Assembly (NCBI GenBank): GCA_038064195.1
Contig: JBBTTO010000002.1
Span: forward strand, 205,356 to 269,355
Direction: 5' to 3'
DNA length: 64,000 bases
DNA from: Patescibacteria group bacterium
Lineage (GTDB): Bacteria > Patescibacteriota > Microgenomatia > Levybacterales > UBA12049
Under the pieces are notes generated by a model. It worked only from the letters and a program-made list of their open reading frames with translations, was not told the origin of the DNA and searched no databases. How positions within the stretch are numbered: the first letter of the stretch is position 1; every line of letters starts with the position of its first letter. Below are positions 30,767 through 52,173 of this stretch, one piece after another. A program made the position numbers and the translations under genes.

Positions 30767-30770
30767 ACAT

Positions 30771-31325: not shown

Positions 31326-31380
31326 GCCCTGCCTGCCGGCGGGTTGTCATTTGAAGCTAAAAAGCTTATAATTACAGACT

Positions 31381-31566: not shown

Positions 31567-31569
31567 CTT

Positions 31570-31959: not shown

Positions 31960-31964
31960 ATACT

Positions 31965-32513: not shown

Positions 32514-32515
32514 CT

Positions 32516-32857
32516 ATGAAAGGTAAAATAAATCGTATTCAGCAGAGACAGGAAAGAACCAGGGCAAAAGTCAGGTTGATCTCTCCACGACCAAGACTAT
32601 CTGTTTTTCGTTCAAATAGTTTCATTTATGCCCAAATCATAGATGATAAGTCACAAAAAACTCTCCTTGGGGTTAGTGAGAAAAAAGAACAGAAAGGTAA
32701 TAAAACAGAGCGTGCTCATGTGTTGGGGCAGGAATTGGCCAAAATGGCGCTGACTAAGAAAATTAAAGAGGTAGTTTTTGATAAAGGACGTTATGCGTAT
32801 CATGGTCGGGTTAAGGCTTTAGCTGAAGGGGCAAGAGAAGGAGGGTTAGTTTTTTAA
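32516..32857 (+). CDS. rplR: 50S ribosomal protein L18
   Basis: ...RPRLSVFRSNSFIYAQIIDD... Confidence 0.9.
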   Translation: MKGKINRIQQRQERTRAKVRLISPRPRLSVFRSNSFIYAQIIDDKSQKTLLGVSEKKEQKGNKTERAHVLGQELAKMALTKKIKEVVFDKGRYAYHGRVKALAEGAREGGLVF

Positions 32858-32858
32858 T

Positions 32859-33347
32859 ATGGCAAGTATGGATTATCAAAATAAGGGAGAATATATTGAG
32901 CACGTTGTGAAGATCAGCCGTGTTTCTAAGAAGACCAAAGGTGGCAATAAAGTTGGCTTTTCTGCGTTAACTGTAGTTGGAGATGGAAAGGGCAAAGTAG
33001 GTGTTGGTCTTGGTAAAGCTCCCGATGTCTCAGGTGCAGTGCGAAAAGGGATCTTGCTTGCGAAAAAGCATATGATCTCAGTCCCGCTTGTTAAAGGGAC
33101 AATTCGTTCACGGGTTGATGTCAAAGTCGGAGCTGCGCGTGTTATGCTTAAGCCGGCACCTCCCGGAAGTGGAATTATCGCAGGCGGCGCAGTACGAAGC
33201 GTGGTAGCTGCAGCCGGCATTACCAATATCTCCAGTAAAGTGCTTGGCAGTAACAATAAAAACGGCAATGTTACAGCCACCCTTGAGGCTCTCCGTATTC
33301 TGTCTGAGATGCAGGAGAAAAAAGAGGCAGGGTTAAAAAATAAATAA
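32859..33347 (+). CDS. rpsE: 30S ribosomal protein S5
   Basis: ...VKISRVSKKTKGGNKVGFSALTVVGDGKGKVGVGLGKA... Confidence 0.95.
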   Translation: MASMDYQNKGEYIEHVVKISRVSKKTKGGNKVGFSALTVVGDGKGKVGVGLGKAPDVSGAVRKGILLAKKHMISVPLVKGTIRSRVDVKVGAARVMLKPAPPGSGIIAGGAVRSVVAAAGITNISSKVLGSNNKNGNVTATLEALRILSEMQEKKEAGLKNK

Positions 33348-33350
33348 TAT

Positions 33351-33818
33351 ATGGAACTTAATCAACTACCATCAATTAGTCATAAAAGTAAAAGACGTCT
33401 TGGTCAAGGCCACGGGTCAGGTCGCGTCAAAACGGCCGGCCGGGGAACAAAAGGCCAAAAAGCCCGTTATGATATTCCGCTTGATTTTGAAGGTGGAGCG
33501 CTGCCGCTTATCAAGAGACTTCCTTTTCTCCGCGGAAAAGATCGTAATAAATCAATCTATGCAAAGCCTATCGTCCTTGATGTAGCCAGCCTGAACAGGC
33601 TTCCTCAGAATACCAAGGTTACCATAGAGTCTTTAGCAAAGCATCAGATCGTCGATAAATTGGCGGCGGAAACGCGTGGTGTTAAGATTTTGGGAAATGG
33701 TGACGTGAATGTTGCGTTGGTTATACAGTTACCTATTTCAAAAAGCGCTGAAGAAAAAGTCATTAAAGCAGGTGGGCGTATTGAACCTGTCACAACGAGT
33801 GTTAGTGTAACTGCATGA
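33351..33818 (+). CDS. rplO: 50S ribosomal protein L15 (it follows rpsE directly; no rpmD/L30 gene)
   Basis: ...[25 protein letters not shown]... Confidence 0.9.
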
Positions 33819-35107
33819 ACAAATTATTTTCCACCCTGTCTACAGCTTTCAGAACACCTGAAGTTCGTCGAAAGCTGATTTATACCGCCATTATTTTTCT
33901 CGTATTCAGAATCTTTGCTCATATTCCGGTCGCGGGCGTTGATGTGGCACATCTGAAAAATTTGTTCGCTCAAAATCAATTTTTGGGGCTTTTGGATGTT
34001 TTTTCAGGCGGAACCTTACGTAACTTTTCTATTCTTGCCTTAGGTCTTAATCCTTATATCAATGCCTCAATTATTCTCCAGGTTTTGACCATGGTTCTCC
34101 CCAAACTTGAGGAAATGCAGAAAGAAGGCGAGCAAGGGAGGCAAAAGATCAATCAATACACACGTTTTCTGACCGTTCCCTTGGCTGTCCTTCAAGCCAT
34201 AGGAATGTACGCACTCCTTCGAAGTCAGGGAATTATTTCGACTCTCTCCCCACTTGAGCTCATAACTTTTCTTTTAACAATGACTGCGGGTACGATGTTT
34301 GCCGTGTGGCTTGGGGAGCTGATTACGGAGCGCGGAGTTGGTAATGGTGTATCAGTTCTTATTTTTGCAGGCATTATCGGAGGTATCCCCGGAGTGCTTG
34401 GTCAGACTGCAGCTACAACAACTGCTGAGAGTGCTATCGGAATTCTGATCTTTTTAGTTCTGGGATTAGCAGTTGTGTCCTCGATTATTTTTGTCAATGA
34501 GGCAACCCGTCAAATTCCTGTACATTATGCAAAAAGGATGCGAGGTAATAAAATGTATGGTGGACAATCCACCCATCTGCCTCTTCGTCTAAATCAATCA
34601 GGCGTTATTCCTATTATTTTCGCAGTCTCGCTTGTTCTTTTACCCTCACTTCTTGCTAATTTTATGCTGGCTTCTCGTAATCCAAAGCTCATAGGTATAG
34701 GTCAGTTTTTAACGTATTGGTTTAATCCTGACGGCTGGGCGTATAATATCGGCTATTTCCTCCTAGTAGTTGGTTTTACTTTTTTCTACACAGCGGTTGT
34801 CTTTAATCCCAAGAAGATTTCAGAGGAGATGCAAAAGCACGGAGGTTTTATCCCCGGTATTCGTCCAGGTATCCAAACAGCCGGTTATCTTAACTATATT
34901 CTAACCCGGTTGACGCTTGTCGGAGCGATTTTCTTAGGAGTTATCGCAATTTTACCGTCACTAGCTAAGGGGGTAACTGGTATTCAAAATCTTGTTCTCG
35001 GCGGTACGGGAATTCTGATCGTCGTGAGTGTTGTTTTGGAAACATATAAAGCAATTGAAGCACAGCTGGTGATGCGGAGTTACGACGGATTTTTACAGAG
35101 GAATTGA
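33815..35107 (+). CDS. secY: preprotein translocase subunit SecY
   Basis: 430 aa with 10 TM helices. [27 protein letters not shown]-terminus. Confidence 0.95.
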
Positions 35108-35108
35108 T

Positions 35109-35666
35109 ATGAAGCTTATTCTTATTGGTATTCAGGGAGCAGGTAAATCAACGCAGGGGAAGCTTCTTTCAGAAAAGCTCCATATTCCCTATCTCTCAAC
35201 GGGGCATATTTTCCGTGAGCTTGCAAAAGAACATACACCTTTAGGTCGCTATGTTAAAGAAACCATTAATGCCGGATTCTTGCTACCTGATGATAAAACA
35301 CTGGAGATCGTCAGTGAATATCTGCACAAACCTGAATATAAAGCCGGCTATATTTTGGATGGATTCCCTCGTACGACCCATCAGGCAGAAAAATTTGAGA
35401 ATGGGGTAGATCATGTGTTTTATCTTAAAGTCTCAGATAAAGAGGCGCTCTGGAGGCTTTCATATCGAGAGGGTGAAGAAGCAGATGGACGCGAAGACGA
35501 TACGCTTAAGGCACTTCGTAGGAGAATAGAGCTTTTTCATGAACATACAGAGCCGGTACTTGCACACTATCGTCACCATAGAAAGCTCATAGAGATTGAC
35601 GGTGAACAAAAGATTCCTCATATCCACGATGAAATCATGCAAAAGATTCATCAAGCGCAAAAGTAG
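35109..35666 (+). CDS. adk: adenylate kinase (short-lid form)
   Basis: ILIGIQGAGKSTQGKLL P-loop. GFILDGFPRT. Confidence 0.9.
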   Translation: MKLILIGIQGAGKSTQGKLLSEKLHIPYLSTGHIFRELAKEHTPLGRYVKETINAGFLLPDDKTLEIVSEYLHKPEYKAGYILDGFPRTTHQAEKFENGVDHVFYLKVSDKEALWRLSYREGEEADGREDDTLKALRRRIELFHEHTEPVLAHYRHHRKLIEIDGEQKIPHIHDEIMQKIHQAQK

Positions 35667-35669
35667 CTC

Positions 35670-36383
35670 ATGAAGACGCAGCAAAAAGGATTTGTCATAG
35701 CAATTGACGGCCCCGCAGCAGCCGGTAAGGGAACAATAGTTCAACTTCTGACAGAGCATTTTAAGGGAGTTAATATTTACACTGGGGGTATGTATCGCGC
35801 TCTTGCTTTAAAATGCATACGAAGCGATATTGACCTCAATGATTCTGAGCAAATTATACACATTCTTAACGAGACAAAAATAGATCTTGGGGCTGATGGG
35901 TCAATGGGCGCAGTTGCTCAGATTTTTCTCGATGGAGGAAATGTAACGAATGAAATTAGGACACCAAAGGCAGCTTTGGGAGCGGGGAAAGTTGGGCAAA
36001 TTAAGCAGGTTCGACAGGTTATGCTGTTTAAGCAGCGGGAAATAGCACAAAGATTTGTCGATCAGGGAAGAGTGGTCATTATTGATGGGCAAGACATAGC
36101 ACGGTCTGTCTATCCTCAGGCAAAAGTAAAAATTTTTTTAACTGCAACTCAAGAAGAAAGGGCAAAAAGACGAAAAAAACAATATGATAAGCAAGGAATA
36201 AATAAAACTATGAGCGATATGTTAGAGGAGATTAAAATACGAGATACAAATGACTTTACGAGAGAACTACATCCATTATCAAATGTCCCTGAAAAAGACG
36301 GTTACTCCGTGGTTGATAGTACAAATTTAAATGAACTTGAGACGAAAGATGCCATTGTCGAGATAGTAAGCAAAAATAAATAG
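35670..36383 (+). CDS. cmk: cytidylate kinase
   Basis: VIAIDGPAAAGKGTI P-loop. ...GGMYRALAL... matches Cmk. Confidence 0.85.
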   Translation: MKTQQKGFVIAIDGPAAAGKGTIVQLLTEHFKGVNIYTGGMYRALALKCIRSDIDLNDSEQIIHILNETKIDLGADGSMGAVAQIFLDGGNVTNEIRTPKAALGAGKVGQIKQVRQVMLFKQREIAQRFVDQGRVVIIDGQDIARSVYPQAKVKIFLTATQEERAKRRKKQYDKQGINKTMSDMLEEIKIRDTNDFTRELHPLSNVPEKDGYSVVDSTNLNELETKDAIVEIVSKNK

Positions 36384-36384
36384 T

Positions 36385-37146
36385 ATGATACATATTAAAA
36401 ACAAAAAAGAAATAGAGGCTATGAAAAAAGGTGGGCATATGTTGGCGGTTGCGTTGCGTGAGACGCTTACCGCAATTAAGCCTGGAATTACTGAGGGAGA
36501 GCTTGACAAGATCGCGGAAAAAGCAATTCGTCGTCAGGGAGGAGAGCCTGGTTTTATGAAGGTACCCGGCTATCATCATACAATCTGTACCGCAACTAAT
36601 GAGGTAATAGTACATGGCATCCCGGGATCTTACGCACTCAAAAAAGGCGATGTTATCTGTATAGATGCCGGAGTTTTTTATGGAGGACTGCACACAGACA
36701 TGGCAGATACGGTAATAGTCGGTGGAAATGATGCCACAACTCAGCCTGTCATAGATTTTTTGGCAGCGGGTGAAAAAGCGCTTTGGGCGGGGATAGCTCA
36801 GGCAAAAGCGGGTAACAGGGTCGGCGATATCTCCAAGGTCATCCAGGAGATTGTTGAAGGTAAAGGCTATAGTGTCGTTCGGACGCTGGTCGGACACGGT
36901 GTCGGGAAAGAATTGCACGAAGAACCTGAGATACCGGGTTATTTGGCAACAGATATTTCTCGCACTCCCTTACTCAAGGAAGGAATGACCATCGCAATTG
37001 AGGTAATTTATGCGATGGGAGGCTCGGATGTGGTCTATGCAAATGAGGATGGATGGACAATAAAGACTGCTGATGATAGTCTTTCGGCAGTTTTTGAACG
37101 TAGCATTGTTGTGACAAAGAATGGGCCAGTCGTTTTGACAGAATAG
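36385..37146 (+). CDS. map: type I methionine aminopeptidase
   Basis: MIHIKNKKEIEAMKKGGHMLAVAL...ICIDAGVFYGGLHTDMADT... Confidence 0.9.
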   Translation: MIHIKNKKEIEAMKKGGHMLAVALRETLTAIKPGITEGELDKIAEKAIRRQGGEPGFMKVPGYHHTICTATNEVIVHGIPGSYALKKGDVICIDAGVFYGGLHTDMADTVIVGGNDATTQPVIDFLAAGEKALWAGIAQAKAGNRVGDISKVIQEIVEGKGYSVVRTLVGHGVGKELHEEPEIPGYLATDISRTPLLKEGMTIAIEVIYAMGGSDVVYANEDGWTIKTADDSLSAVFERSIVVTKNGPVVLTE

Positions 37147-37180
37147 GGTTGCTCTTTCGAGGCTAGTTTGATATAATAAT

Positions 37181-37318
37181 ACGAATAGACGCGAATACTC
37201 ATTTGTTTGTCCATATTTGAGTGTATTCGTGTGAATGAATAGCACTATAAAGTAAATCTCAAACACGCGAATTAACGCGAAAAAGAGAAGCATTAAAGCT
37301 GATTCGCGTCGATTCGTG
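37181..37318. promoter_or_regulatory. cluster of at least seven (A/C)CGAAT(A/T) motifs in both orientations, upstream of infA
   Basis: acgaatagacgcgaatac ... gtattcgtgtgaatgaat ... cacgcgaattaacgcgaaaaag ... gattcgcgtcgattcgtg, in the 177-nt map-infA spacer. Confidence 0.4.
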
Positions 37319-37323
37319 TTTTT

Positions 37324-37542
37324 ATGGTTCATCAAGGATCAGTAGAAAAAGAAGGAATTGTTAGAGAAGCCCTGCCAAATACATTATTTAGGGTGGAAAT
37401 TGAGGATGGCTCAATCGTACTTTGTCATTTATCCGGTAAGATGCGTATTCACTTTATAAAAATTTTACCCGGAGATAAGGTTCGGATTGAGATGACTCCT
37501 TATGATATAGGCAAAGGGCGTATTACCTATCGAGTTAGGTAG
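37324..37542 (+). CDS. infA: translation initiation factor IF-1
   Basis: ...[51 protein letters not shown]... matches the IF-1 S1-fold. Confidence 0.95.
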
Positions 37543-37555
37543 GTATTGAAGCTAT

Positions 37556-37669
37556 ATGAAAGTACAAGCCAGTGTTAAAAAAAGATGTATCAAATGCAAA
37601 ATTATTCGTCGAAAGGGCGTTGTTTTTGTAATTTGTCAAACACCAAAGCATAAACAGCGACAAGGATAG
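37556..37669 (+). CDS. rpmJ: 50S ribosomal protein L36 (not in the ORF track; below its length cutoff)
   Basis: Translation [37 protein letters not shown] is the canonical L36 zinc-ribbon sequence. It lies between infA and rpsM as expected. Confidence 0.9.
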
Positions 37670-37760
37670 GTTAGGCATTAGTTAATTAGCGTTTAGGGTT
37701 TAGTTAAAAATAAAGCAAACTAATTACTAGACGTTAGCAAACTAAAGGCCAGACAAAATT

Positions 37761-38162
37761 ATGAGAATTGCAGGAGTTACTATACCGGACGAAAAAAGAG
37801 TTGATATTGCCCTTACCTACTTATATGGGATTGGTCGAAGTAATGTTGTGGGAGTTCTTAAAGCAGCTGAGATTGAAGGATCAAAAAGAGTAAAAGATCT
37901 TTCAGAAGATGATCAGAAACGCATTACTAAAGCTTTGGAAACAATTAAAGTAGAAGGAGATTTAAGGACTCAGGTCAACAGTGATGTGAAGCGTTTGAGA
38001 GAATCGGGAGCTTATCGAGGTATTCGACATACAAGAGGATTACCTGTTCGCGGTCAACGCACCAAATCAAATGCCCGAACAAAACGTGGGAAGAGAATGA
38101 CAATTGGGGCTATTAAGAAAGAATTAGCAGCTAAGATAGAAGCAGCAGCAGTTAAAAAATAA
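37761..38162 (+). CDS. rpsM: 30S ribosomal protein S13
   Basis: MRIAGVTIPDEKRVDIALTYLYGIGRS... Confidence 0.95.
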   Translation: MRIAGVTIPDEKRVDIALTYLYGIGRSNVVGVLKAAEIEGSKRVKDLSEDDQKRITKALETIKVEGDLRTQVNSDVKRLRESGAYRGIRHTRGLPVRGQRTKSNARTKRGKRMTIGAIKKELAAKIEAAAVKK

Positions 38163-38174
38163 CGGAGTAGTTAT

Positions 38175-38576
38175 ATGGCAGATAAAAAGACACAAAAAAC
38201 AACAGCCAAGAAGAAGTCAACATTGACCGTTACCGATCATGGACGGGTTTATGTGACAGCTACTTTTAATAACTCATTAATTAGTATCACAAATGACAAA
38301 GGAGATCTTATCTCCTGGAGCTCAAGTGGAAATGCAGGCTTTAAAGGGACACGAAAATCAACTCCTTATGCTGCGTCTCTGGCTGTAGAGAATGCAGTTC
38401 GTAAAGCTATCACGCGCGGCCTTAAGTCAGTTGACGTTTTTGTAAAAGGTCCCGGCTCAGGCAGAGATTCGTCACTCAGAGCTATTAAAAGTGCCGGCCT
38501 CTCTATTACCTCAATTGCCGATATTACACCGATCCCTCACAACGGCCCTCGGGCTAAGAAGAAAAGGAGAGTATAG
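38175..38576 (+). CDS. rpsK: 30S ribosomal protein S11
   Basis: ...VYVTATFNNSLISITNDKGDLISWSSSGNAGFKGTRKSTPYAA... Confidence 0.95.
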   Translation: MADKKTQKTTAKKKSTLTVTDHGRVYVTATFNNSLISITNDKGDLISWSSSGNAGFKGTRKSTPYAASLAVENAVRKAITRGLKSVDVFVKGPGSGRDSSLRAIKSAGLSITSIADITPIPHNGPRAKKKRRV

Positions 38577-38579
38577 TCT

Positions 38580-39182
38580 ATGGCACGTTATACCGGACCA
38601 AAACACAAATTAGCACGTAGAGAAGGGGTTAATATCCTGGATAAGTCGTCTGCCAGTTTGCAGCGCCGCTTGAATGTCCCCCCGGGTGTGCATGGCAAAA
38701 AACCAAAACGTCGCACCTCAGAATTCGGACAGCAACTTCGTGAAAAACAGAAAGCGAAAGCCATGTATGGAGTCCTCGAGAGACAGTTTAAGCGTTTGGT
38801 GACTGAACTTGAAAAGAAAAAGGGTGATACAGGTGAGCTGATGCTGTCTTTACTTGAGACCAGACTGGATAACATGGTCTATCGACTGGGGTTTGCTAAA
38901 AGTCGTTTCCAAGCACGACAATTTGTTTCTCACGGACATGTCAAAGTTAACGGTAAGAAATTAAATATCCCTTCCTATCAGGTTAAACTTAATGAAGAGA
39001 TCGAAGTAGATGAGAAAATACAAAAGACGCCTGATGTTATGAAACTTCTTCAGGAGAAAACAGAGTTAGTTTCATTTATTGAGAGATCAGGCACTAAGGG
39101 GAGACTTTCCCGTATGCCAAGCAAGGAGGATATAGTCGTTCCGTTCAATACTCAACAGATTATTGAATATTACTCGAGATAA
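38580..39182 (+). CDS. rpsD: 30S ribosomal protein S4
   Basis: MARYTGPKHKLARREG... Confidence 0.95.
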   Translation: MARYTGPKHKLARREGVNILDKSSASLQRRLNVPPGVHGKKPKRRTSEFGQQLREKQKAKAMYGVLERQFKRLVTELEKKKGDTGELMLSLLETRLDNMVYRLGFAKSRFQARQFVSHGHVKVNGKKLNIPSYQVKLNEEIEVDEKIQKTPDVMKLLQEKTELVSFIERSGTKGRLSRMPSKEDIVVPFNTQQIIEYYSR

Positions 39183-42851: not shown

Positions 42852-43418
42852 TTAGTTCTCGTCTACCACAAGTTCTTTTGCGAAAAGATATCCCCACATA
42901 ATGGCAGCTGGAAGAAGATTCTCAAATTTGTCCACGTTAAATTCTCTTCCTCGTAAACTAAACCTACGAATATACTGTTGGGTATTGAGATGAGTAATGA
43001 AAAGCTCCATAACCTGACTGACAGGTGGTTGGACTTTAATTCCCTCAGAAAGAGTTCTGCCTATTTTTTGTCGTGCCAAACGAATATCTTCATCCTCCTT
43101 ACGGATTCGATAGGGAAGATATCCTTTAGTCAGACTTCTCTCCTTAAGATATATTTGTACACCCCCGGTCATAGAGAGATAAAGCATACCATAGAGGCGG
43201 GTACGGGAGACCTCCTCAGGGGATGGAATAGGATTATAGAGAAGTTGGCTAAAGATGTTAGAAGCTTTTCTGCAATGGACAAGAAGATCTTCAGGAAGAT
43301 AAAATTTTGAAAGAGCACTATCATGGGTATATTGATCCATAGAATACACAATATCCTCCCAAATTCTCTGGACAGACGGATCAAGTTGTTGTTCTTGCTT
43401 GCTGGGCAGTCGTTTCAT
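42852..43418 (-). CDS. hypothetical cytoplasmic protein (no recognisable family)
   Basis: 188-aa ORF, convergent with the DUF360 gene. Charged, with no motifs recognised. Confidence 0.4.
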   Translation of the reverse strand: MKRLPSKQEQQLDPSVQRIWEDIVYSMDQYTHDSALSKFYLPEDLLVHCRKASNIFSQLLYNPIPSPEEVSRTRLYGMLYLSMTGGVQIYLKERSLTKGYLPYRIRKEDEDIRLARQKIGRTLSEGIKVQPPVSQVMELFITHLNTQQYIRRFSLRGREFNVDKFENLLPAAIMWGYLFAKELVVDEN

Positions 43419-43534
43419 ATCAAAATCGGATACTGTATATGGTCATTATTAGCATATACACAATCAATTATGAAATGCAAGCAGATTAGCTCAAGTGTTA
43501 TAATTAATTATGCGACTTTTCCCGCGAAATCTTA

Positions 43535-43768
43535 TTGTCCGAAATCTCGACGGATTTTTTTCCGCCAACAATCGCGTTACTTTACGTCATTTTTATCTCA
43601 ATCTATATCCTGTCGAAGATGTTAGCAACTCGAAGAACTATTTCTGAGAAGGAATATCTTGTGAACGCGCTTGAGATGGTTGAAGAGGCAGTTATCAATG
43701 ATCTGGATCTTGAGGAAAAAAAGCGGGCTCAGTTTTATCTGGGGAAAAGTGATTCAGGCGATCCCTAA
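43535..43768 (+). CDS. small membrane-anchored hypothetical protein
   Basis: 77 aa with one N-terminal TM helix and an acidic C-terminus. Confidence 0.3.
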   Translation: MSEISTDFFPPTIALLYVIFISIYILSKMLATRRTISEKEYLVNALEMVEEAVINDLDLEEKKRAQFYLGKSDSGDP

Positions 43769-43823
43769 GCAATCGATCGGGAAGAACACTCTTTATGAAC
43801 ATTTAATGGTATAATTCACTACT

Positions 43824-44795
43824 ATGTTAATTGATAACGTTATTATTACCGTTGAAGGTGGCTCAGGTGGTAACGGGGCTATTTCCTTTCGACGGAACGA
43901 AGGTAATCCCATGGGCGGTCCGGATGGAGGTAATGGAGGCAATGGTGGAGATGTCTATTTTGTCGGGATTAATGATCTGACTGCGTTAGACAAGTTTCAA
44001 TATAAGAAAATCTGGAAAGCTCAGGATGGTGTTCCCGGGAAGAAAAAAAATCTTTTTGGTAAGAATGCTCCGGATCTGATTATCTCACTCCCTTTAGGAA
44101 CAAGGGTTACTGACGAATCGGGGGAAGAAATACTTGAGATAGAAGACACCGAAAGAAAACATCTTATTGCACATGGAGGTAAAGGCGGAAGAGGTAACAA
44201 TGAGTTCAAATCAGCGACTAATCAAGCTCCTCGGATTGCTGAGCAGGGTGAGATAGGTGAAAAAAAAGTTTTGGCATTACAATTACGACTCATCGCTGAC
44301 ATCGGCTTAATCGGGCTTCCGAATGCGGGTAAGAGTACACTCCTGTCACTTTTGACCAGCGCAAAGCCGAAAATAGGTGATTATCCCTTCACAACGCTTG
44401 AGCCGAATGTCGGGATGATGGATGGGGTAATGCTGGCTGATATTCCCGGACTTATTGAGGGGGCAAGTAGTGGCAAGGGGTTAGGGATTACCTTTTTAAA
44501 GCATATTGAGAAGACACATCTACTTGTTCACTGTGTTGATGCAGTCCAACCCAATCTTTTAGGTAACTATAATATTGTAAGAGACGAGTTTGCTAAGTTT
44601 AACCCTGAGCTACTTACTAAACCGGAAATTATTATTCTTACCAAAACTGATGAGATATCCGAGGAGAGTTTGAAGTCTCAGTTGGAGAGTCTTCAGAATA
44701 CCAAGCGAGAAATACTACCTATGAGTATTCTTGATGATGATAGCGTTATTACAGTTCGTGAGCGATTACTTGCTCTTTATAGAGAATATAAGTAG
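43824..44795 (+). CDS. obg: GTPase Obg
   Basis: Obg-fold glycine-rich N-domain (GGSGGNGAISFRRNEG...GGNGGDVYF) and G-domain GLIGLPNAGKST. Confidence 0.9.
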   Translation: MLIDNVIITVEGGSGGNGAISFRRNEGNPMGGPDGGNGGNGGDVYFVGINDLTALDKFQYKKIWKAQDGVPGKKKNLFGKNAPDLIISLPLGTRVTDESGEEILEIEDTERKHLIAHGGKGGRGNNEFKSATNQAPRIAEQGEIGEKKVLALQLRLIADIGLIGLPNAGKSTLLSLLTSAKPKIGDYPFTTLEPNVGMMDGVMLADIPGLIEGASSGKGLGITFLKHIEKTHLLVHCVDAVQPNLLGNYNIVRDEFAKFNPELLTKPEIIILTKTDEISEESLKSQLESLQNTKREILPMSILDDDSVITVRERLLALYREYK

Positions 44796-44875
44796 CTAAG
44801 ATTTCTTTTGAATATCCGGTATTCTGTAATCCTCCTTGACGAAGTCCCTAGTATCAGTTACTATATTTCTCTATT

Positions 44876-45433
44876 ATGGATTCCAAACAACAAGCCTCAG
44901 ATTCTTGTCCCAAATGCGGACAGCCTCTCGGTGATATAGTAACTACCGCTTCCGGACGTAAATTGCAGCGTTGCTCCACATCCGTTTGGGATCCGAATAC
45001 GCGAAGTAATACCGGATGTGACTTTGTTAAATGGCTTGAGGTAGAGCCACAACAGCTTGATGAGAAGTGCCCTAAGTGCGGTGCTCCTGTTATCTTGGCG
45101 GTTACGAGGTTTGGTAAAAAAATGAAAAAATGTTCAACCTCCTCCTGGGATAAAGAAGCAAAAAAGGCAATTGGCTGTGACTATATAGAATGGATAAACG
45201 GTACGACAGAGCAGCTTGATGAAGACTGTCCGGAATGCGGCGCAAAATTGGTACTATATACGACGGCAAATGGCAAAAAAATGAAAAAATGCAGTACTTC
45301 AGGCTGGGATAAAGCCGCACGTAAACCAACAGGGTGTACCTATGTTTACTGGTTAAAGCCTTCGGAGTATCCATCCTCAACCCCCCAGGATACAGGTGAG
45401 GAGTTTCTTCCCCCTGCGCCAGAAAATGAGTAA
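44876..45433 (+). CDS. stand-alone protein of three tandem C4 zinc-ribbon repeats (topoisomerase-type zinc-finger-like)
   Basis: Three repeats of about 58 aa, each CP[KE]CG-x14-CSTS-x-WD-x9-10-GC-x-[YF]-[VI]-x-W. Examples are CPKCGQPLGD...RCSTSVWD...GCDFVKW and CPKCGAPVIL...KCSTSSWD...GCDYIEW. Confidence 0.6.
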   Translation: MDSKQQASDSCPKCGQPLGDIVTTASGRKLQRCSTSVWDPNTRSNTGCDFVKWLEVEPQQLDEKCPKCGAPVILAVTRFGKKMKKCSTSSWDKEAKKAIGCDYIEWINGTTEQLDEDCPECGAKLVLYTTANGKKMKKCSTSGWDKAARKPTGCTYVYWLKPSEYPSSTPQDTGEEFLPPAPENE

Positions 45434-45716
45434 GTATAAAGAAGTATTCCAGGATATGGTGGATTATAACGGTGAGGTTTTTGCTTCATTTCAAAAACTT
45501 CATGACGCCTATTCACTTAATCCTCAACAGCTTCAAAAAGCCTTCAATCAAGAAGGTGAGCGTGTTTTGAGGATTATTAGAAAATATGAGAACATTCTCT
45601 GTGGTAAGTCTGAGTCAGGTAAGTATGGAAAGTTCTCAAGTACGTTATCTGATAAGTTCTGGGGTGAGGTTCGTCAACGGTTCCCAAATATTGATAAAGT
45701 CGGACTGCTCTCCTAA
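45427..45716 (+). CDS. small hypothetical protein translationally coupled (ATGA-type overlap) to the zinc-ribbon gene
   Basis: MSKYKEVFQDMVDYNGEVF... The listed ORF 45396..45716 includes an upstream extension that overlaps the zinc-ribbon gene. Confidence 0.4.
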
Positions 45717-45736
45717 GCCTCGTTTTTTTCTCAGAT

Positions 45737-46669
45737 TTGCGTCATAATAAATTAGTTACTATGTTTTTATTTGACAAGAAAAAACAAGCGGGAACACAGA
45801 GAAGCTTACAGCGATCGTCAATAAAGAAAAATCAGCCTCATTTCATCACGAGATTTCCCATCGGGAAAATTATTTTAGTATTGGGTGTTATCTTTCTTAT
45901 TCTTCTGCTTATTACGCCGGGAAGTTTTATGGGCAAATACTCAGATAGTCTACCTGGTAGTGGATCAAACATAAATGGCAGTCCTGATCTAGAAACAGCC
46001 AATACTCAGCAACTTACCCCCGAACAGCTTCAATCTGAGAAGACTCAGTCTAAGGATTTTTTTATCGGGCCAATTAGGCTATCTCATTCTTCATATATTA
46101 ATGAACAATTAGACTCATTCTCACAAGAGTCAAAAGATTCATCTTCTCAAACTGATGAGTCCCAAAGTAAAGGGGATCAACAGTTTTCTCTTCAAGATAT
46201 TCTTATAAAGCCCTTGGATTATCTCGCCTCTCTAGGATACACAATACGAGTGTCTGTCAGCAATAGTAGTAAAAAAACCACGTTTTATAAATTGGTTGAC
46301 AGTATCTCAAGATACTATGTCAGTTATTCACATTTTCCACACTACGATGTCAGTGCAGAAGACGGCTATAGCTGGGTGACTGAGATGGTCCAGGCTAATG
46401 AAATGTCAGGGACATATGAATATGTCCTTCGCACAACTGCCCCGATGTCATATTGTGGAACAGTTCAACAAAATGGCTACTGTTACAAATCAGATGAGGC
46501 AAATGCGATTCTCTATGTAAGAATAGATGAGCCTTCAGGTCAGGATATTTGCTCTGATCAGGCATTATTCCTTCTCTGGTCTTCACAGGATAATAAAACA
46601 GGAGAATTATGTATGGATCAGGAGCCTATACAGCTCGGAGGATTTAAGTTCTTACCGATCCGTAATTAA
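45737..46669 (+). CDS. membrane-anchored secreted hypothetical protein with a Cys-containing C-terminal domain
   Basis: N-terminal TM (IILVLGVIFLILLLITPG), a Ser/Gln-rich linker, and a C-terminal domain with several Cys residues (YCGTVQQNGYCY...DICSDQ...ELCMDQ). Confidence 0.4.
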   Translation: MRHNKLVTMFLFDKKKQAGTQRSLQRSSIKKNQPHFITRFPIGKIILVLGVIFLILLLITPGSFMGKYSDSLPGSGSNINGSPDLETANTQQLTPEQLQSEKTQSKDFFIGPIRLSHSSYINEQLDSFSQESKDSSSQTDESQSKGDQQFSLQDILIKPLDYLASLGYTIRVSVSNSSKKTTFYKLVDSISRYYVSYSHFPHYDVSAEDGYSWVTEMVQANEMSGTYEYVLRTTAPMSYCGTVQQNGYCYKSDEANAILYVRIDEPSGQDICSDQALFLLWSSQDNKTGELCMDQEPIQLGGFKFLPIRN

Positions 46670-47095
46670 GTGGGGATAATCATTAATCTTTTTAAGAGTC
46701 TTGGTAAATATGTCAGAGTACTCTAGGGGAGGAAGCTTAGTAAAGGTGATCCACCGATACTCGGAGTGATCAGGGCTTAGTTTGATGCTCTCAGATTCTG
46801 TTTGGAGACAAAGATAGACGATCCTTATCACCTGCATGGAAGTATCACTTACTGAATGTCCATTAAGTACAGTAAGAGGATAGAGAGTTCCTGTTTTTAA
46901 ACCGGTCTCTTCAGAGATCTCTCTTTTTATTGCTTGCTGTGGATCCTCACCTAAATCTACAGCTCCTCCCGGAAGCTCCCAAAGATTTGGGTGGGTGTCA
47001 TGAGCTGCTCTTTTTATGATCAGGAACTCTTCTTTTTTGATTTGATTTAAGATCAATCCGTAGACGGCAATTCTTTGCTTGCTAATATCCATCAC
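46652..47095 (-). CDS. NUDIX hydrolase
   Basis: Nudix box GGAVDLGEDPQQAIKREISEETGL. Confidence 0.8.
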   Translation of the reverse strand: MMDISKQRIAVYGLILNQIKKEEFLIIKRAAHDTHPNLWELPGGAVDLGEDPQQAIKREISEETGLKTGTLYPLTVLNGHSVSDTSMQVIRIVYLCLQTESESIKLSPDHSEYRWITFTKLPPLEYSDIFTKTLKKINDYPHLITDR

Positions 47096-47631
47096 AGTAG
47101 TATAACTATATTAAATCTTGAGAACAAGTTCAGGAGAAGAGGAGAGCGGACTAATACGTTTTCAACTTCACTGATACCTGTTTGGGTGTCGATTCGTGAC
47201 AGTATCTCAACAATAACTTCATCTCCCGAGAGAATTTTTTTCAACCATGGTTCTGTGTCGTCAAACATATCGCTATAAGGGATATCGTCAAAAGTAAACC
47301 AGCGTGGATAGACTCCCGGAGTAGATCTGGGTTCACCACTAAAGCGTCTGCACAGGAAAACAGTGATTGTAAGTGTTTCCTGTCTCACGTCTTTCTCTTG
47401 TAGATCGTAGTAGTGAATGATACCTACTTTTTCTAAGTCGGTTTCGTTAACGTGAATTTTTATCTCCTCATAGAGTTCTCTTATAGCAGCCATTTCCGGA
47501 CTTTCTCTCATCTCCGTATATCCGCTGATACCGTTCCAGGTGATTTTGTTTTGACGGTAGTTACTTTCTGCTAAAAGGATCCTGTCATCATCAATAAGAA
47601 ATGTAATGACAGCGTTACGTCTGTCAGTCAT
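47092..47631 (-). CDS. NUDIX-family hydrolase (divergent Nudix box)
   Basis: ISGYTEMRESPEMAAIRELYEEIKI approximates GX5EX7REUXEEXGU. 4-nt overlap with the downstream NUDIX gene. Confidence 0.55.
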   Translation of the reverse strand: MTDRRNAVITFLIDDDRILLAESNYRQNKITWNGISGYTEMRESPEMAAIRELYEEIKIHVNETDLEKVGIIHYYDLQEKDVRQETLTITVFLCRRFSGEPRSTPGVYPRWFTFDDIPYSDMFDDTEPWLKKILSGDEVIVEILSRIDTQTGISEVENVLVRSPLLLNLFSRFNIVILL

Positions 47632-47645
47632 ATTGATAGTTTTGG

Positions 47646-48821
47646 TTATTCAACATGAATTTGCTTGTTTATCTGTATAGAAAATTTTCCTCTGAGAAGT
47701 GCTGATATTTCCTCCGAGAGCTTTGTGATGCCGTATTGATTTTTTACCGATATAAAAAGAGCTGTATCGTCTATGAAATAGTTTTGTAGAGATTTTTTTT
47801 CAGCAGAGGTAAGTTTGTCTGATTTATTGAGAACATAGAGGGTTGGCTTGTTAACGACTCCTAAATCTTTAAGAATTTTTTTGACGGTAGAAACTTTTCT
47901 TTCCCAATCCTCATCAGCTGCATCAATCACATGCAGAAGCAGGTTTGCCTGAAGCGATTCCATCAAGGTTGAACGGAAAGCATTAATCAAGCTTGCCGGA
48001 AGGTTACGTATAAAACCAATAGTATCAGACACTACGACCTCCTCCGCAACATCGGCGAGAAATAACTTCCCAACGTGACTGTCAAGGGTCGCAAAAAGGG
48101 CATTCTCAACTAATTGTTTTTTCCCTGTAAGGAGATTGAAGAGTGAGGTTTTACCTGCGTTGGTATACCCGACAATGGAAACTGTTTTTATACCCATGCG
48201 CTCACGATGTATAAGCTGTCTTTGTCTATCATCGGACAATTTTAGCAGTCGTTTTTCAACTTTTCCGATTTGATCCCGCCAGTGGCGTTTCATAAGCTCG
48301 GTGTTCGTTTCTCCAATGCCACGGGTACCTATACTTCCCCCTTGGCGAGATAGTATATAGCCCATACCATAGATACGGGGCCCCATATGTCGCATTGCAG
48401 CCAGTTCAATTTGAAGTTTTGCTTCAGTAGTATGGGCGTGACGGGAGAAGATGTGGAGAATAAGATCGACGCGGTCCCAGACTTCAATTGTCGGCTTGGA
48501 GGACTGAAGTATCTTTCTCATATCAAAGATATGCCCGGGTTTGACAATGGCATTCAAAACTACGACGTTAATGTCTTTTGTTTTTATACAATCCGCAATT
48601 TCTTGTATTTTCCCATTGCCTAAATACAGCCCTTTATCATGAATTTCTCTTTTTTGTAAAACATATTCTATTGTCTGGCCTGCGTAGGAATCAATCAGTT
48701 CTTTAACTTCTTTTATATCTTGAAAAGCATCGCTATCAGAGAGGGTGTGCGGGAGGATGCTGGCAATAAGAAATTTTTTATGATCAGAAGGAGTCATGAG
48801 ATATGTGTCTAATGATAACAA
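47646..48821 (-). CDS. hflX: GTPase HflX
   Basis: HflX N-domain plus G-domain VSIVGYTNAGKTSLFNLLTG and DTIGFI. Confidence 0.85.
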   Translation of the reverse strand: MLSLDTYLMTPSDHKKFLIASILPHTLSDSDAFQDIKEVKELIDSYAGQTIEYVLQKREIHDKGLYLGNGKIQEIADCIKTKDINVVVLNAIVKPGHIFDMRKILQSSKPTIEVWDRVDLILHIFSRHAHTTEAKLQIELAAMRHMGPRIYGMGYILSRQGGSIGTRGIGETNTELMKRHWRDQIGKVEKRLLKLSDDRQRQLIHRERMGIKTVSIVGYTNAGKTSLFNLLTGKKQLVENALFATLDSHVGKLFLADVAEEVVVSDTIGFIRNLPASLINAFRSTLMESLQANLLLHVIDAADEDWERKVSTVKKILKDLGVVNKPTLYVLNKSDKLTSAEKKSLQNYFIDDTALFISVKNQYGITKLSEEISALLRGKFSIQINKQIHVE

Positions 48822-50805: not shown

Positions 50806-51654
50806 ATGCGTATTTTACAAACAAATGGTTGGGAAGATTATGAACTCCTTGATAGCGGAGAGGGTTACCGCCTGGAGCGATTTGGGGAGTACACTATTGC
50901 CAAACCTGATCCTCAGGCAATTTGGCAACGAGGTCTCCCAATATCTGTATGGAAGAAAGCTGACGCAACTTTTGAGAAAGAAGGCTGGGTGCGAAGGACA
51001 GATGTTCCTGAGAAATGGTTAGTGCACTATAAGAAGATTTCTTTCTATACCAAGCTCACTCCTTTTAAGCATACCGGAGTTTTCCCTGAGCAACATCTTC
51101 ATTGGGATTTTATCAGTCATGCAATTACACAAAGTAAGCGAGAAGTTAAGGTTCTCAATCTCTTCGCCTATACAGGGATTGCCAGTCTTATTGCCGCTTT
51201 TGCTGGGGCAGAAGTAACACATGTTGATGCTTCGCGACCGGCTATCGGTTGGGCAAGAGAAAATCAAGAAGCGTCCAAGCTGGCAGACAAACCAATCAGG
51301 TGGATTTTAGATGACGTAGTGCGATTTGTCGAAAAAGAAGTAAGGCGAGGAAATACGTATGAAGGAATTATTATGGATCCCCCAGTTTATGGACACGGGC
51401 CGGGTGGAGAGTTATGGGATTTCCCAAAAAATTTCCCGGAATTAGTCAAGCTTTGTAGTCAGTTATTATCAGATAAACCACTTTTTGTCATCGTAAACGC
51501 ATATGCAATTTCCGCCTCAAGTATAATGCTTGAGAATGTTTTACGGGATCATCTAACAAAAGGAAAGGTTGAGGTTGGTGAATTAGCTATTCAGGAGAGT
51601 AGCGGTAAAAGACTATTGTCTACCGGAATTTTTGCCCGCTGGTCAGCTGAGTAG
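50806..51654 (+). CDS. class I SAM-dependent RNA methyltransferase (RlmI/RlmK-like)
   Basis: ...VLNLFAYTGIASLIAAFAGAEVTHVDASRPAIGWAREN...IIMDPP... gives SAM-binding motifs I and IV (DPP). Confidence 0.65.
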   Translation: MRILQTNGWEDYELLDSGEGYRLERFGEYTIAKPDPQAIWQRGLPISVWKKADATFEKEGWVRRTDVPEKWLVHYKKISFYTKLTPFKHTGVFPEQHLHWDFISHAITQSKREVKVLNLFAYTGIASLIAAFAGAEVTHVDASRPAIGWARENQEASKLADKPIRWILDDVVRFVEKEVRRGNTYEGIIMDPPVYGHGPGGELWDFPKNFPELVKLCSQLLSDKPLFVIVNAYAISASSIMLENVLRDHLTKGKVEVGELAIQESSGKRLLSTGIFARWSAE

Positions 51655-52173
51655 CTTGGCTGCGACAAGAGCGGCAAGAGTGGCATTTGCCCTCCATTCT
51701 CCCCGCGCTATTTCTTTTTTAAGTTCTGAAACAGTAATAACTCTCTGGGTCAGACTCTCATTCGGATCAAAGTTAGTCTCCTGGGTTTTGGTGACACCGG
51801 TAGCTTTTATGAAATGAGCCCTATGAGAATCCTTTGTAGTATAATCATAATACTCTCCTAGGTTTTCCCATTCTCCTCCTGTATATCCTGTCTCCTCCGC
51901 GAGCTCTCGTTTGGCGGACTCTAAAGGATCTTCACCTTTTTCAATATGACCTGCAGGGAGTGTGTGAATGATTTTATTAATGGCGTATTTATACTCATCA
52001 ATTGTTACGATATTATTGTCAGTATCCAGTGCGACAATCATAGAATAATTGGGTTTTTCAATGACAGAGTAGTCATCGATGACATTCCCATTAGGGAGTT
52101 TTACTTTGTCCTCGTAGACTTTGAGGAATTTTGTATCAATTAACGTTTTTCTATCTAAACGTTTCCAAGACAT
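51643..52173 (-). CDS. NUDIX hydrolase (ADP-ribose pyrophosphatase-like)
   Basis: Nudix box ...AGHIEKGEDPLESAKRELAEETGY... Confidence 0.8.
   Translation of the reverse strand: MSWKRLDRKTLIDTKFLKVYEDKVKLPNGNVIDDYSVIEKPNYSMIVALDTDNNIVTIDEYKYAINKIIHTLPAGHIEKGEDPLESAKRELAEETGYTGGEWENLGEYYDYTTKDSHRAHFIKATGVTKTQETNFDPNESLTQRVITVSELKKEIARGEWRANATLAALVAAKLLS

What the first reader, a model, noticed from the sequence alone, without database searches (positions are those of the whole stretch)
44876..45716. Stand-alone triple zinc-ribbon protein (topoisomerase-type zinc-finger-like repeats) translationally coupled to a small unknown ORF
A 185-aa protein consists of three tandem repeats of about 58 aa, each with four Cys in the pattern CP[KE]CG-x14-C-S-T-S-x-W-D-x9-10-G-C-x-[YF]-[VI]-x-W, and nothing else. 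No topoisomerase or helicase catalytic domain is attached. A sigma70-like promoter (TTGACG-17-TACTAT) lies at about 44835-44865. The stop overlaps the start of a 96-aa ORF (ATGAGTAA), implying a two-gene module, which is followed by a membrane-anchored Cys-rich secreted protein. Free-standing topo-type zinc ribbons are nucleic-acid-binding modules, so a dedicated pair could be a DNA/RNA-binding regulator or a toxin-antitoxin-like pair.
Basis: seen in the sequence. Interest (0 to 1): 0.6.

Follow-up and report, generated by a model that had tools for sequence, protein, structure and literature searches.

The report
Stand-alone triple topoisomerase-type zinc-ribbon protein
This is a real, very strongly conserved small protein of one group of ultra-small groundwater bacteria (Microgenomatia, CPR), built only from three topoisomerase-I-type zinc ribbons plus an acidic docking tail; it most likely binds single-stranded nucleic acid, and it is not a toxin-antitoxin or fixed two-gene module.

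Summary
ORF 44876-45433 (+) encodes 185 aa with three tandem 4-Cys repeats. The period is 53-54 aa, not 58. Its stop overlaps the ATG (45426) of a 96-aa ORF.

The repeats are genuine topoisomerase-I C-terminal zinc ribbons of an undescribed subtype. PF01396 scores above its threshold, hhalign against canonical ribbons gives 96.5% probability, and the best fold matches are E. coli Topo I. The subtype has a 9-10-residue hairpin with an invariant Trp inserted between Cys3 and Cys4. It has Met/Leu where the canonical DNA-stacking aromatic sits.

The protein is not a topA fragment. About 2,000 homologues are all stand-alone proteins of about 175-190 aa. They share 64-89% identity, occur in at least 540 species genomes, and are 10-20 points more conserved than Obg or HflX. 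All carry a conserved tail, GEEFLPPEP. Five of 212 members add an SSB-like D[LMV]PF tip.

The "two-gene module" reading fails. The 96-aa gene follows in only 13 of 144 loci, and its more distant homologues sit elsewhere.

My best reading is a housekeeping ssDNA- or RNA-binding hub, analogous to YrdD and to SSB, possibly working with Topo I. The same ribbon subtype is fused to type IA topoisomerases in other lineages. The function is inferred, not shown. I rate it a new variant of a known kind, of moderate interest.

The parts
44836..44864 (+). Sigma-70-type promoter, TTGACG (44836-44841), 17-nt spacer, TACTAT (44859-44864). The -10 box ends 11 nt before the ATG, so the mRNA would have a leader of only a few nucleotides and no Shine-Dalgarno sequence.
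   Evidence: One search found the site. Searches show the same arrangement in homologous loci, with the -10 box ending mostly 5-12 nt before the ATG. One search shows this leaderless style is common among first genes in the window.
44876..45433 (+). CDS of the 185-aa triple zinc-ribbon protein (ZnR), 12 Cys. The ribbon core carries a net positive charge and the tail is acidic.
44894..45052 (+). Ribbon 1 (residues 7-59): C11-P-K-C14 ... C33-S-T-S-V-W38-D ... G47-C48-D-F-V-K-W53. Leu30 sits at the position of the canonical stacking aromatic.
   Evidence: Invariant columns; repeat statistics; strand pattern; hhalign.
45056..45214 (+). Ribbon 2 (residues 61-113): C65-P-K-C68 ... T-R-F-G-K-K-M83-K-K-C86-S ... 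W91-D ... G100-C101-D-Y-I-E-W106. It is the only ribbon with the R-F-G turn motif of Topo I ribbons. The linker E-W-I-N-G-x-x-E to ribbon 3 is invariant.
   Evidence: The motif definition is from PMC10969213.
45215..45373 (+). Ribbon 3 (residues 114-166): C118-P-E-C121 ... G-K-K-M136-K-K-C139-S ... W144-D ... G153-C154-T-Y-V-Y-W159.
45374..45430 (+). Disordered acidic C-terminal tail (residues 167-185). The conserved peptide G174-E-E-F-L-P-P180 lies at nt 45395-45415. It sits at a fixed distance of about 14 residues after the last Trp and about 4 residues from the C-terminus across the family.
   Evidence: pLDDT of about 50; conservation (GEE[FYL]LP in 202 of 212 full-length members).
45426..45716 (+). 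CDS of the 96-aa helical protein (p96). Its start overlaps the ZnR stop by 8 nt. It is a clade-restricted neighbour, not a constant partner.
   Evidence: The AF2 model has pLDDT 90.6, with no PDB fold match.
45761..46669 (+). CDS of a 302-aa protein (310 aa from TTG 45737) with an N-terminal membrane anchor and a Cys-containing C-terminal part. It is seen near ZnR only in the window's close relatives.
   Evidence: No Pfam, NCBIfam, PHROG or PADLOC match.

Best explanation
The gene encodes a small housekeeping nucleic-acid-binding protein specific to Microgenomatia-type CPR bacteria.

Three Cys4 zinc ribbons homologous to the C-terminal ribbons of bacterial topoisomerase I are strung together by short conserved linkers. 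Together they form a positively charged core. Each ribbon carries an extra beta-hairpin, with an invariant Trp, inserted in the Cys3-Cys4 loop.

By analogy with E. coli Topo I domains D5-D7 and with E. coli YrdD, the ribbons would each hold 2-3 nucleotides of single-stranded DNA (or RNA). A flexible acidic tail ends in the conserved peptide GEEFLPPEP. The tail would then act like the C-terminal tip of SSB, docking a partner protein and/or folding back on the basic core.

The gene is transcribed from its own strong promoter as a nearly leaderless mRNA. In the window's own clade the 96-aa gene has come to lie behind it and is translationally coupled to it. That coupling is a local arrangement and does not define the system.

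Shown here: homology, architecture, conservation, distribution and gene context.
Inferred: Zn binding, ssDNA binding, the docking role of the tail, and the identity of the partner.
For: Homology to Topo I ribbons:
- PF01396 scores above its gathering threshold.
- BLASTP to E. coli YrdD gives E 2e-6, with the gap exactly at the inserted loop.
- hhalign of the single-ribbon profile (A3) against canonical ribbons (A4) gives 96.5% probability, E 8e-10, with one 9-residue insertion.
- The top three Foldseek PDB hits are E. coli Topo I (9gdh_F, 4rul_A, 9gda_F; probability 0.85-0.90).

Fold:
- The AF2 model has pLDDT 80.
- The CxxC knuckle lies in the beta1-beta2 loop. Cys3 ends beta3 and Cys4 precedes the last strand, with an extra hairpin between them.

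Stand-alone and conserved:
- 2,089 and 1,829 hits in two searches. All listed hits are 160-211 aa at 64-89% identity.
- The family collapses to one full-length cluster at 50% identity.
- It is found in at least 540 GTDB species genomes and at least 557 metagenome contigs.
- 119 of 120 members have exactly 12 Cys.
- ZnR is 10-20 identity points above Obg and HflX in the same genome pairs.

Tail and charge:
- GEE[FYL]LP occurs in 202 of 212 members at fixed spacing. The tail has a net charge of about -4.6 and the core about +8.
- Five members add a terminal [DE]D[LMV]PF, the SSB tip motif.

Link to topoisomerase:
- The same ribbon subtype is fused to the C-terminus of type IA topoisomerases P0206, P0207, P0220 and P0227.

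Known biochemistry:
- Topo I ribbons bind ssDNA by stacking, and YrdD shows Zn-dependent ssDNA binding (PMC4678816).
Against: - The canonical beta3 aromatic that stacks on bases (F616/Y728 in E. coli Topo I) is Met or Leu in all 352 ribbons examined.
- The G(R/K)(Y/F)G turn motif is present only in ribbon 2. PMC10969213 states that ribbons lacking these aromatics may not bind ssDNA. The binding mode, and even the ligand (ssDNA, RNA, dsDNA or a protein such as RNA polymerase), is therefore open.
- PF01396 aligns only its first 20 of 39 positions.
- No solved structure matches the single-ribbon profile by sequence.
- No conserved neighbour gives a functional hint.
- There are no experimental data for this family.
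Confidence: 0.6

Rival explanations
1. Trans-acting topoisomerase I partner. The protein would be a detached C-terminal DNA-binding domain that works with a Microgenomatia Topo I, which may lack its own ribbons. It would hold the passing or unwound strand, and the tail would dock on the enzyme.
For: - Ribbons of exactly this subtype are fused C-terminally to Toprim+Topoisom_bac enzymes in other lineages: P0206 (a Mycoplasma sp. MAG), P0207 and P0220 (which look UGA-recoded), and P0227. This is a Rosetta-stone type of link.
- The E. coli Topo I ribbons are required for relaxation activity (PMC4678816).
Against: - No topA lies within 6-10 kb of the gene in about 160 loci, about 1.65 Mb in all.
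- The domain architecture of Microgenomatia TopA could not be obtained with the tools, so the key premise is untested.
- E. coli keeps both a full TopA and the stand-alone YrdD, so a stand-alone ribbon protein need not complement a truncated enzyme.
Confidence: 0.2
2. RNA-binding or ribosome-associated factor, for example an rRNA or ribosome-assembly chaperone, rather than a DNA-binding protein.
For: - In the window's clade the gene lies between obg and hflX and just downstream of the rpsM-rpoA-rplQ-rplM-rpsI block.
- Its conservation is at the level expected of translation components.
- It has Lys-rich strands and lacks the DNA-stacking aromatic.
- Type IA topoisomerase C-terminal zinc fingers are proposed to bind RNA as well (PMC10969213).
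Against: - The Obg neighbourhood is present in only 14 of 78 loci, and no neighbour is conserved family-wide.
- All detectable homology is to topoisomerase ribbons.
- The occasional SSB-type tip points to ssDNA transactions.
Confidence: 0.12
3. Dedicated two-gene module with the 96-aa protein (a regulator pair or a toxin-antitoxin-like pair).
For: - There is an 8-nt start/stop overlap in the window.
- In the 10 loci of the first, genome set where the two genes are adjacent, the gap is 2 nt or less in 7.
- Both genes are under purifying selection.
Against: - They are adjacent in only 13 of 144 loci.
- There are 53 homologues of the 96-aa protein against about 2,000 of ZnR.
- Homologues of the 96-aa protein at 52-56% identity follow unrelated genes, with ZnR absent or 3.7 kb away.
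- There are no PADLOC, Pfam or PHROG matches.
- ZnR behaves as a core gene rather than a mobile or variable one.
Confidence: 0.04
4. Fragment or pseudogene remnant of a topA gene.
For: Only the domain homology to the Topo I C-terminal region.
Against: - All listed homologues have uniform length and 12 Cys.
- The gene has its own conserved promoter.
- It has a conserved non-topoisomerase tail.
- No Toprim or Topoisom_bac sequence lies upstream; obg ends 80 nt before it.
Confidence: 0.01

Closest known systems
E. coli YrdD (b3283; COG0551, 'ssDNA-binding Zn-finger/Zn-ribbon of topoisomerase 1')
   Same: - Both are stand-alone proteins of about 180 aa made only of tandem Topo-I-type Cys4 ribbons.
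- There is weak but significant similarity: BLASTP gives 33% identity over 72 aa, E 2e-6.
- IMG names family members with the COG0551 label.
- YrdD is reported to bind ssDNA in a Zn-dependent manner (cited in PMC4678816), which is the function inferred here.
   Different: - YrdD has four canonical ribbons (PF01396 at 180 bits). This protein has three ribbons, and PF01396 barely detects them (36 bits).
- YrdD has the short C-S-x-Y-P-x-C second knuckle and the stacking Phe. This protein has a 9-10-residue Trp-bearing insertion and Met/Leu instead.
- YrdD has no GEEFLPPEP tail.
- The two are not orthologues. This family is confined to CPR bacteria and is far more conserved.
C-terminal zinc-ribbon domains D5-D7 of E. 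coli topoisomerase I (Topo_C_ZnRpt, PF01396; PDB 4RUL, 9GDA-9GDH)
   Same: - Same fold class and same order of zinc ligands: the first knuckle C-P-x-C-G lies in the beta1-beta2 loop and the second on the beta3-beta4 loop.
- Both have three tandem ribbons.
- They are the best structural matches, and the profile-profile match is 96.5%.
- Ribbon 2 keeps the R-F-G turn motif.
   Different: - This protein is not attached to a Toprim/topoisomerase core.
- It has an extra hairpin in the second knuckle.
- The first DNA-binding aromatic is absent.
- The second aromatic is possibly replaced by the loop Trp, two positions further on.
- It has a GRF-like [YF]-[VI]-x-W after Cys4.
- It has an acidic docking tail.
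zf-GRF zinc fingers (APE2, NEIL3, TOP3A; PF06839/PF23549)
   Same: - Both are small Cys4 ssDNA-binding ribbons found on type IA topoisomerases.
- Both have a variable Cys3-Cys4 spacer.
- Both have an aromatic cluster ending in Trp after the last Cys (described in PMC9369019).
   Different: - In GRF fingers the first two ligands are separated by one residue. Here the spacing is C-x2-C, preceded by a beta1 strand.
- There is no G-R-x-F motif here.
- PF23549 scores 22 bits against a cut-off of 27, and only over the CPKCG knuckle.
Bacterial SSB (OB fold plus disordered linker plus acidic D-D-D-I-P-F tip)
   Same: - The overall logic is the same: a basic nucleic-acid-binding core, a short disordered linker, and a conserved acidic/hydrophobic C-terminal peptide.
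- Five family members actually end in [DE]D[LMV]PF.
   Different: - There is no OB fold here.
- The usual tail motif is GEEFLPPEP, not DDIPF.
- A Levybacteria genome carrying ZnR also has a canonical SSB ending in DDIPF (L027), so this protein does not replace SSB.

Membership tests
Topo_C_ZnRpt / PF01396 (topoisomerase I C4 zinc ribbon) | Four Zn-ligand Cys: C-x2-C in the first knuckle, with Cys3 and Cys4 further apart | tested here: met
   C-P-x-C ... C-S ... G-C is present in all three repeats. All 12 Cys are invariant in alignment A1, and 119 of 120 homologues have exactly 12 Cys.
Topo_C_ZnRpt / PF01396 (topoisomerase I C4 zinc ribbon) | Score above the Pfam gathering threshold, or profile-level homology to canonical ribbons | tested here: met
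   PF01396 scores 36 bits against a cut-off of 32, but covers only model positions 1-20 of 39. hhalign of A3 against A4 gives probability 96.5%, E 7.9e-10, end to end with one 9-residue insertion.
Topo_C_ZnRpt / PF01396 (topoisomerase I C4 zinc ribbon) | Conserved aromatic in the middle of beta3, three positions before Cys3 (the first ssDNA stacking site) | tested here: not met
   The residue at this position is Met in 237 and Leu in 115 of 352 ribbons. The feature definition is from PMC10969213 and PMC9369019.
Topo_C_ZnRpt / PF01396 (topoisomerase I C4 zinc ribbon) | Second stacking site: the G(R/K)(Y/F)G turn, or an aromatic just after Cys3 | tested here: inconclusive
   R-F-G is present only in ribbon 2. 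All three ribbons have an invariant Trp five residues after Cys3, where canonical ribbons have Tyr at +3.
Topo_C_ZnRpt / PF01396 (topoisomerase I C4 zinc ribbon) | Four-stranded antiparallel sheet with the Zn site at one end | tested here: inconclusive
   The AF2 model (pLDDT 80) gives five strands per repeat, that is the canonical four plus an inserted hairpin. The best PDB matches are E. coli Topo I, but with E of only 4e-3 to 2e-2.
Topo_C_ZnRpt / PF01396 (topoisomerase I C4 zinc ribbon) | Binds Zn(II) and single-stranded DNA | not testable with these tools
   This needs purified protein, with metal analysis and EMSA or anisotropy.
YrdD-type stand-alone ribbon proteins (COG0551) | A protein consisting only of tandem Topo-I-type ribbons, with no catalytic domain | tested here: met
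   No other Pfam or NCBIfam domain was found. All listed homologues are 160-211 aa. IMG gives the COG0551 name.
YrdD-type stand-alone ribbon proteins (COG0551) | Orthology to E. coli YrdD (same repeat number and type) | tested here: not met
   Identity is only 33% over 72 aa. The counts are three ribbons against four. The insertion and the tail are absent from YrdD.
zf-GRF | C-x-C first knuckle, G-R-x-F motif, and a Pfam threshold score | tested here: not met
   The spacing is C-x2-C and there is no GRxF motif. PF23549 scores 22 bits, below its cut-off of 27, and PF06839 is not among the best 25 of 61 matched families listed. Only the [YF]-[VI]-x-W after Cys4 resembles GRF fingers.
Toxin-antitoxin or defence gene pair | Two genes that stay together across genomes, with variable or mobile context and a match to known TA or defence families | tested here: not met
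   The partner is adjacent in only 13 of 144 loci and is found elsewhere on its own. There are no PADLOC hits. ZnR is a conserved core gene.
Bacterial SSB | OB-fold ssDNA-binding domain | tested here: not met
   PF00436 is not among the best 25 of 61 matched Pfam families listed. The model is all zinc ribbon. A canonical SSB is present in a ZnR-carrying Levybacteria genome.
Bacterial SSB | Disordered linker ending in an acidic tip with a terminal P-F | tested here: inconclusive
   An acidic disordered tail is present in all members. The tip motif is GEEFLPPEP in most, and a true D[LMV]PF end occurs in only 5 of 212.

The most novel reading that the evidence does not exclude
Microgenomatia may carry, next to canonical SSB, a second lineage-wide single-strand-binding hub built from topoisomerase-type zinc ribbons instead of an OB fold. 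Its conserved GEEFLPPEP tail would be a new docking peptide that recruits a specific partner to unwound DNA or R-loops. The best candidate partner is topoisomerase I, since in other lineages the same ribbon subtype is covalently attached to that enzyme. This would be a split, non-covalent version of the Topo I C-terminal domain and a new kind of SSB-like organiser in reduced genomes.
Probability: 0.25. Interest if true: 0.6.

Novelty: new variant of a known kind. Interest (0 to 1): 0.38.

Why it matters
CPR bacteria have tiny genomes, and most of their lineage-specific conserved proteins have no assigned role. This protein is more conserved than the universal GTPases Obg and HflX. It is present in at least 540 species genomes and is driven by a conserved, near-consensus promoter. 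It probably does something central to DNA or RNA handling in Microgenomatia.

Three things make it useful:
- It defines a ribbon subtype that current Pfam models barely see. That subtype also sits undetected on some type IA topoisomerases and on phage proteins.
- It offers a short, testable docking peptide.
- If the link to Topo I or the SSB-like hub role is confirmed, it would show how a reduced genome re-packages a topoisomerase accessory domain as a separate factor.

If not, it remains a well-defined but ordinary stand-alone zinc-ribbon nucleic-acid-binding protein.

Tried and rejected
**TopA architecture in Microgenomatia.**
- tblastn with the E. coli, P0206 and P0227 topoisomerase cores found nothing in the window or in about 165 related loci, about 1.65 Mb in all.
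- The window's large ORFs are not topA.
- The split-enzyme idea therefore could not be tested.

**SSB replacement.** Rejected. A canonical SSB with a DDIPF tip lies in Levybacteria locus L027.

**Other proteins sharing the tail motif.** None was found in the window or in the first 83 fetched loci.

**Giant "relatives".** P0186, P0209 and P0261 are spurious repeat or low-complexity hits. P0186 and P0209 lack the Cys motif, and P0261 is a fish mucin-like protein with only low-complexity Pfam matches.

**Single-ribbon profile against PDB sequences.** It gave only generic CPxCG knuckle hits.

**The 96-aa protein.** No family and no fold match.

**Viral context.** The context of a single-ribbon relative (L170) was uninformative.

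**Other checks.**
- No Rfam family in 43000-48000.
- No DNA-level tandem repeat.
- The YrdD paper (PMC4211881) is not held, so YrdD biochemistry is cited second-hand from PMC4678816.
- A literature search found nothing on this CPR family.
Full report
**1. What is in the sequence**

ORF 44876-45433 (+) encodes 185 aa. The protein is three tandem repeats followed by a 19-residue tail.

- The repeats align with 38-56% pairwise identity, z = 15-17 against shuffled sequence.
- The period is 53-54 residues, not about 58. At the DNA level the duplication is no longer detectable.
- Each repeat reads C-P-x-C-G, 17-18 residues, C-S-T-x-x-W-D, 8 residues, G-C-x-[YF]-[VI]-x-W.
- The stop codon overlaps by 8 nt the ATG (45426) of a 96-aa ORF. 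Homologues of that ORF confirm this start.
- A TTGACG-17-TACTAT promoter lies at 44836-44864.

The window is part of a roughly 1.07-Mb contig of a Patescibacteria MAG from Hainich groundwater.

**2. The repeats are topoisomerase-I-type zinc ribbons of a distinct subtype**

Evidence for homology to topoisomerase I ribbons:

- Pfam PF01396 is the best hit and passes its threshold (36 against 32 bits), but only the first knuckle half of the model aligns.
- E. coli YrdD, a stand-alone protein with four canonical ribbons, matches at E 2e-6. The alignment gap falls exactly between Cys3 and Cys4.
- I built a profile of single ribbons (A3) and a profile of canonical ribbons from YrdD, E. coli TopA and other topoisomerases (A4). 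hhalign gives 96.5% probability, E 8e-10, end to end with one 9-residue insertion in the second knuckle.
- AlphaFold2 (pLDDT 80) gives the expected hairpins for each repeat, plus an extra hairpin in that loop. The tail is disordered.
- The three best Foldseek matches in the PDB are E. coli Topo I structures, at probability 0.85-0.90 but weak E-values.

Differences from the canonical ribbon:

| Feature | Canonical Topo I ribbon | This family |
|---|---|---|
| Aromatic three residues before Cys3 (first ssDNA stacking site) | Phe or Tyr | Met or Leu in 352 of 352 ribbons |
| G(R/K)(Y/F)G turn motif | usual | survives only in ribbon 2 |
| Aromatic after Cys3 | usually Tyr at +3 | invariant Trp at +5 |
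| Residues after Cys4 | no equivalent | [YF]-[VI]-x-W, reminiscent of GRF fingers |

GRF membership itself fails. No solved structure matches this subtype by sequence.

**3. It is a complete, stand-alone and very conserved protein**

- Two searches returned 2,089 and 1,829 homologues. Every listed one is 160-211 aa at 64-89% identity.
- NCBI names them [quoted passage not shown]. IMG gives the COG0551 label.
- In a library clustered at 50% identity the family collapses to a single full-length representative plus fragments.
- It is present in at least 540 GTDB species genomes and at least 557 metagenome contigs.
- The named genomes are mostly Levy-, Shapiro-, Woese-, Gottesman-, Roizman- and Daviesbacteria, that is Microgenomatia.
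- In genome pairs where neighbours can be compared, ZnR is 10-20 identity points more conserved than Obg and HflX.

**4. The tail**

After about 14 variable residues comes G-E-E-[FYL]-L-P-P-E-P, about four residues from the end, in 202 of 212 full-length members.

- The tail has a net charge of about -4.6 and the ribbon core about +8.
- Five members carry an additional terminal [DE]D[LMV]PF, the signature tip of bacterial SSB.
- A canonical SSB ending in DDIPF exists in a ZnR-carrying Levybacteria genome, so ZnR does not replace SSB.

A basic nucleic-acid-binding core, a disordered linker and a conserved acidic/hydrophobic tip together make up the design of SSB-type hubs. That comparison rests on my own knowledge of SSB biology.

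**5. Gene context**

There is no conserved operon.

- Among 78 genome loci, the commonest neighbours are a generic ABC transporter (19 loci) and Obg (14 loci).
- The 96-aa gene directly follows ZnR in 13 of 144 loci with enough downstream sequence. All of these are close relatives of the window.
- In the 10 such loci of the first (genome) set, the gap is 2 nt or less in 7, so the two genes are co-translated in that clade.
- The 96-aa family has only 53 members.
- Three of its members at 52-56% identity sit behind an unknown 322-aa gene, a histidine-kinase-like ATPase gene, and an FKBP gene. ZnR is absent or 3.7 kb away in those loci.
- The 96-aa protein is a confident four-helix model with no family or fold match.
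- None of the three proteins matches defence or TA models.

The pair is therefore a local arrangement, not a module.

**6. Promoter**

The promoter is conserved in position across the family. The -10 box ends mostly 5-12 nt before the ATG, which implies a leaderless or nearly leaderless mRNA. This is not special to ZnR. Many first genes in the window look the same, while genes inside the ribosomal-protein operon have Shine-Dalgarno sequences.

**7. Relatives with other architectures**

Beyond the family, the representative-library search found:

- Type IA topoisomerases with one or two ribbons of this subtype at their C-terminus. These are P0206 from a Mycoplasma sp. MAG, P0207 and P0220 (which show Trp where Gly is expected, as if UGA were recoded), and P0227.
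- Proteins of about 100-230 aa with a single such ribbon, some on viral contigs.

In three of these ribbons the position before Cys3 is Phe, which confirms the alignment to the canonical stacking site. The fusion to topoisomerases is the only functional link found. It motivates the rival reading that ZnR works with Topo I. I could not obtain a Microgenomatia TopA to test whether it lacks ribbons.

**8. Verdict**

The "two-gene regulator or TA" interpretation is not supported.

The most likely function is a housekeeping single-stranded nucleic-acid-binding protein with a docking tail. It works like YrdD or the Topo I C-terminal domain, and in design like SSB. Confidence is moderate, because the canonical stacking residue is missing and nothing has been measured.

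The family is already annotated at domain level. What is new is:

- the ribbon subtype;
- the tail motif;
- the extreme conservation;
- the restriction to one CPR class.

I rate it a new variant of a known kind, interest about 0.38.

Noticed in passing
window, e.g. starts at 3121, 7043(-), 16967, 43824, 50240(-), 50806; contrast 26852-39182: Many first-in-operon genes have a -10-like box ending 5-12 nt before the start codon and no Shine-Dalgarno sequence. Genes inside the ribosomal-protein operon have GGAGG-type sites. Leaderless transcription appears to be the rule for monocistronic or first genes in this CPR genome.
   Followed up: partly
family members P0017, P0025, P0033, P0116, P0381 (C-termini): Five of 212 full-length family members end in [DE]D[LMV]PF, the C-terminal tip motif of bacterial SSB, added after the usual GE[EQ][FN]LPPEP peptide.
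   Followed up: partly
P0206, P0207, P0220, P0227 (C-terminal 70-110 residues): Type IA topoisomerases carry one or two ribbons of the same Trp-loop subtype. Pfam PF01396 does not detect them in three of the four. P0207 and P0220 have Trp where conserved Gly is expected (for example S-F-W-R-V-Q-T-P and W-I-W-R-P-S-T-Y), which suggests UGA-recoded organisms translated with the wrong code.
   Followed up: partly
L170-L174 (IMG/VR contigs, e.g. IMGVR_UViG_3300028920_000131): Proteins of about 160-185 aa on viral contigs have a single ribbon of this subtype, flanked by an unknown N-terminal domain and a C-terminal helix. Neighbouring genes gave no informative PHROG matches.
   Followed up: partly
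window 45426-45716: The 96-aa protein belongs to a small family of 53 homologues, all 85-99 aa. It has a highly conserved core Y-E-N-x-L-C-G-K-S-E-S-G-K-Y-G-K-F-S (13 invariant columns) and a confident four-helix model (pLDDT 90.6). It matches no known family and no PDB fold.
   Followed up: yes
window 19248-21071: The ORF at 19248-21071 combines CoA-ligase/succinyl-CoA-ligase-like domains with a citrate synthase C-terminal domain. This is an ATP-citrate-lyase- or citryl-CoA-type architecture, which is unexpected in a metabolically reduced CPR genome.
   Followed up: no
window 46652-47631 (-) and 51643-52173 (-): Three NUDIX hydrolase genes lie within 6 kb, two of them tandem and overlapping by 4 nt, next to hflX.
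   Followed up: no
L006-L008, L011, L012 and many others (record titles): Many ENA-derived MAG records that clearly carry Microgenomatia-type loci are titled "uncultured Gammaproteobacteria bacterium". The titles cannot be used for taxonomy.
   Followed up: no
L005:6520-6546, L007:6510-6533: In the loci where the 96-aa gene follows ZnR, the last ZnR codons (P-E-P-E-E...CCGGAGGAATAA) themselves form a GGAGG Shine-Dalgarno sequence a few nt before the downstream ATG. The window lacks this and uses the ATGAGTAA overlap instead.
   Followed up: partly
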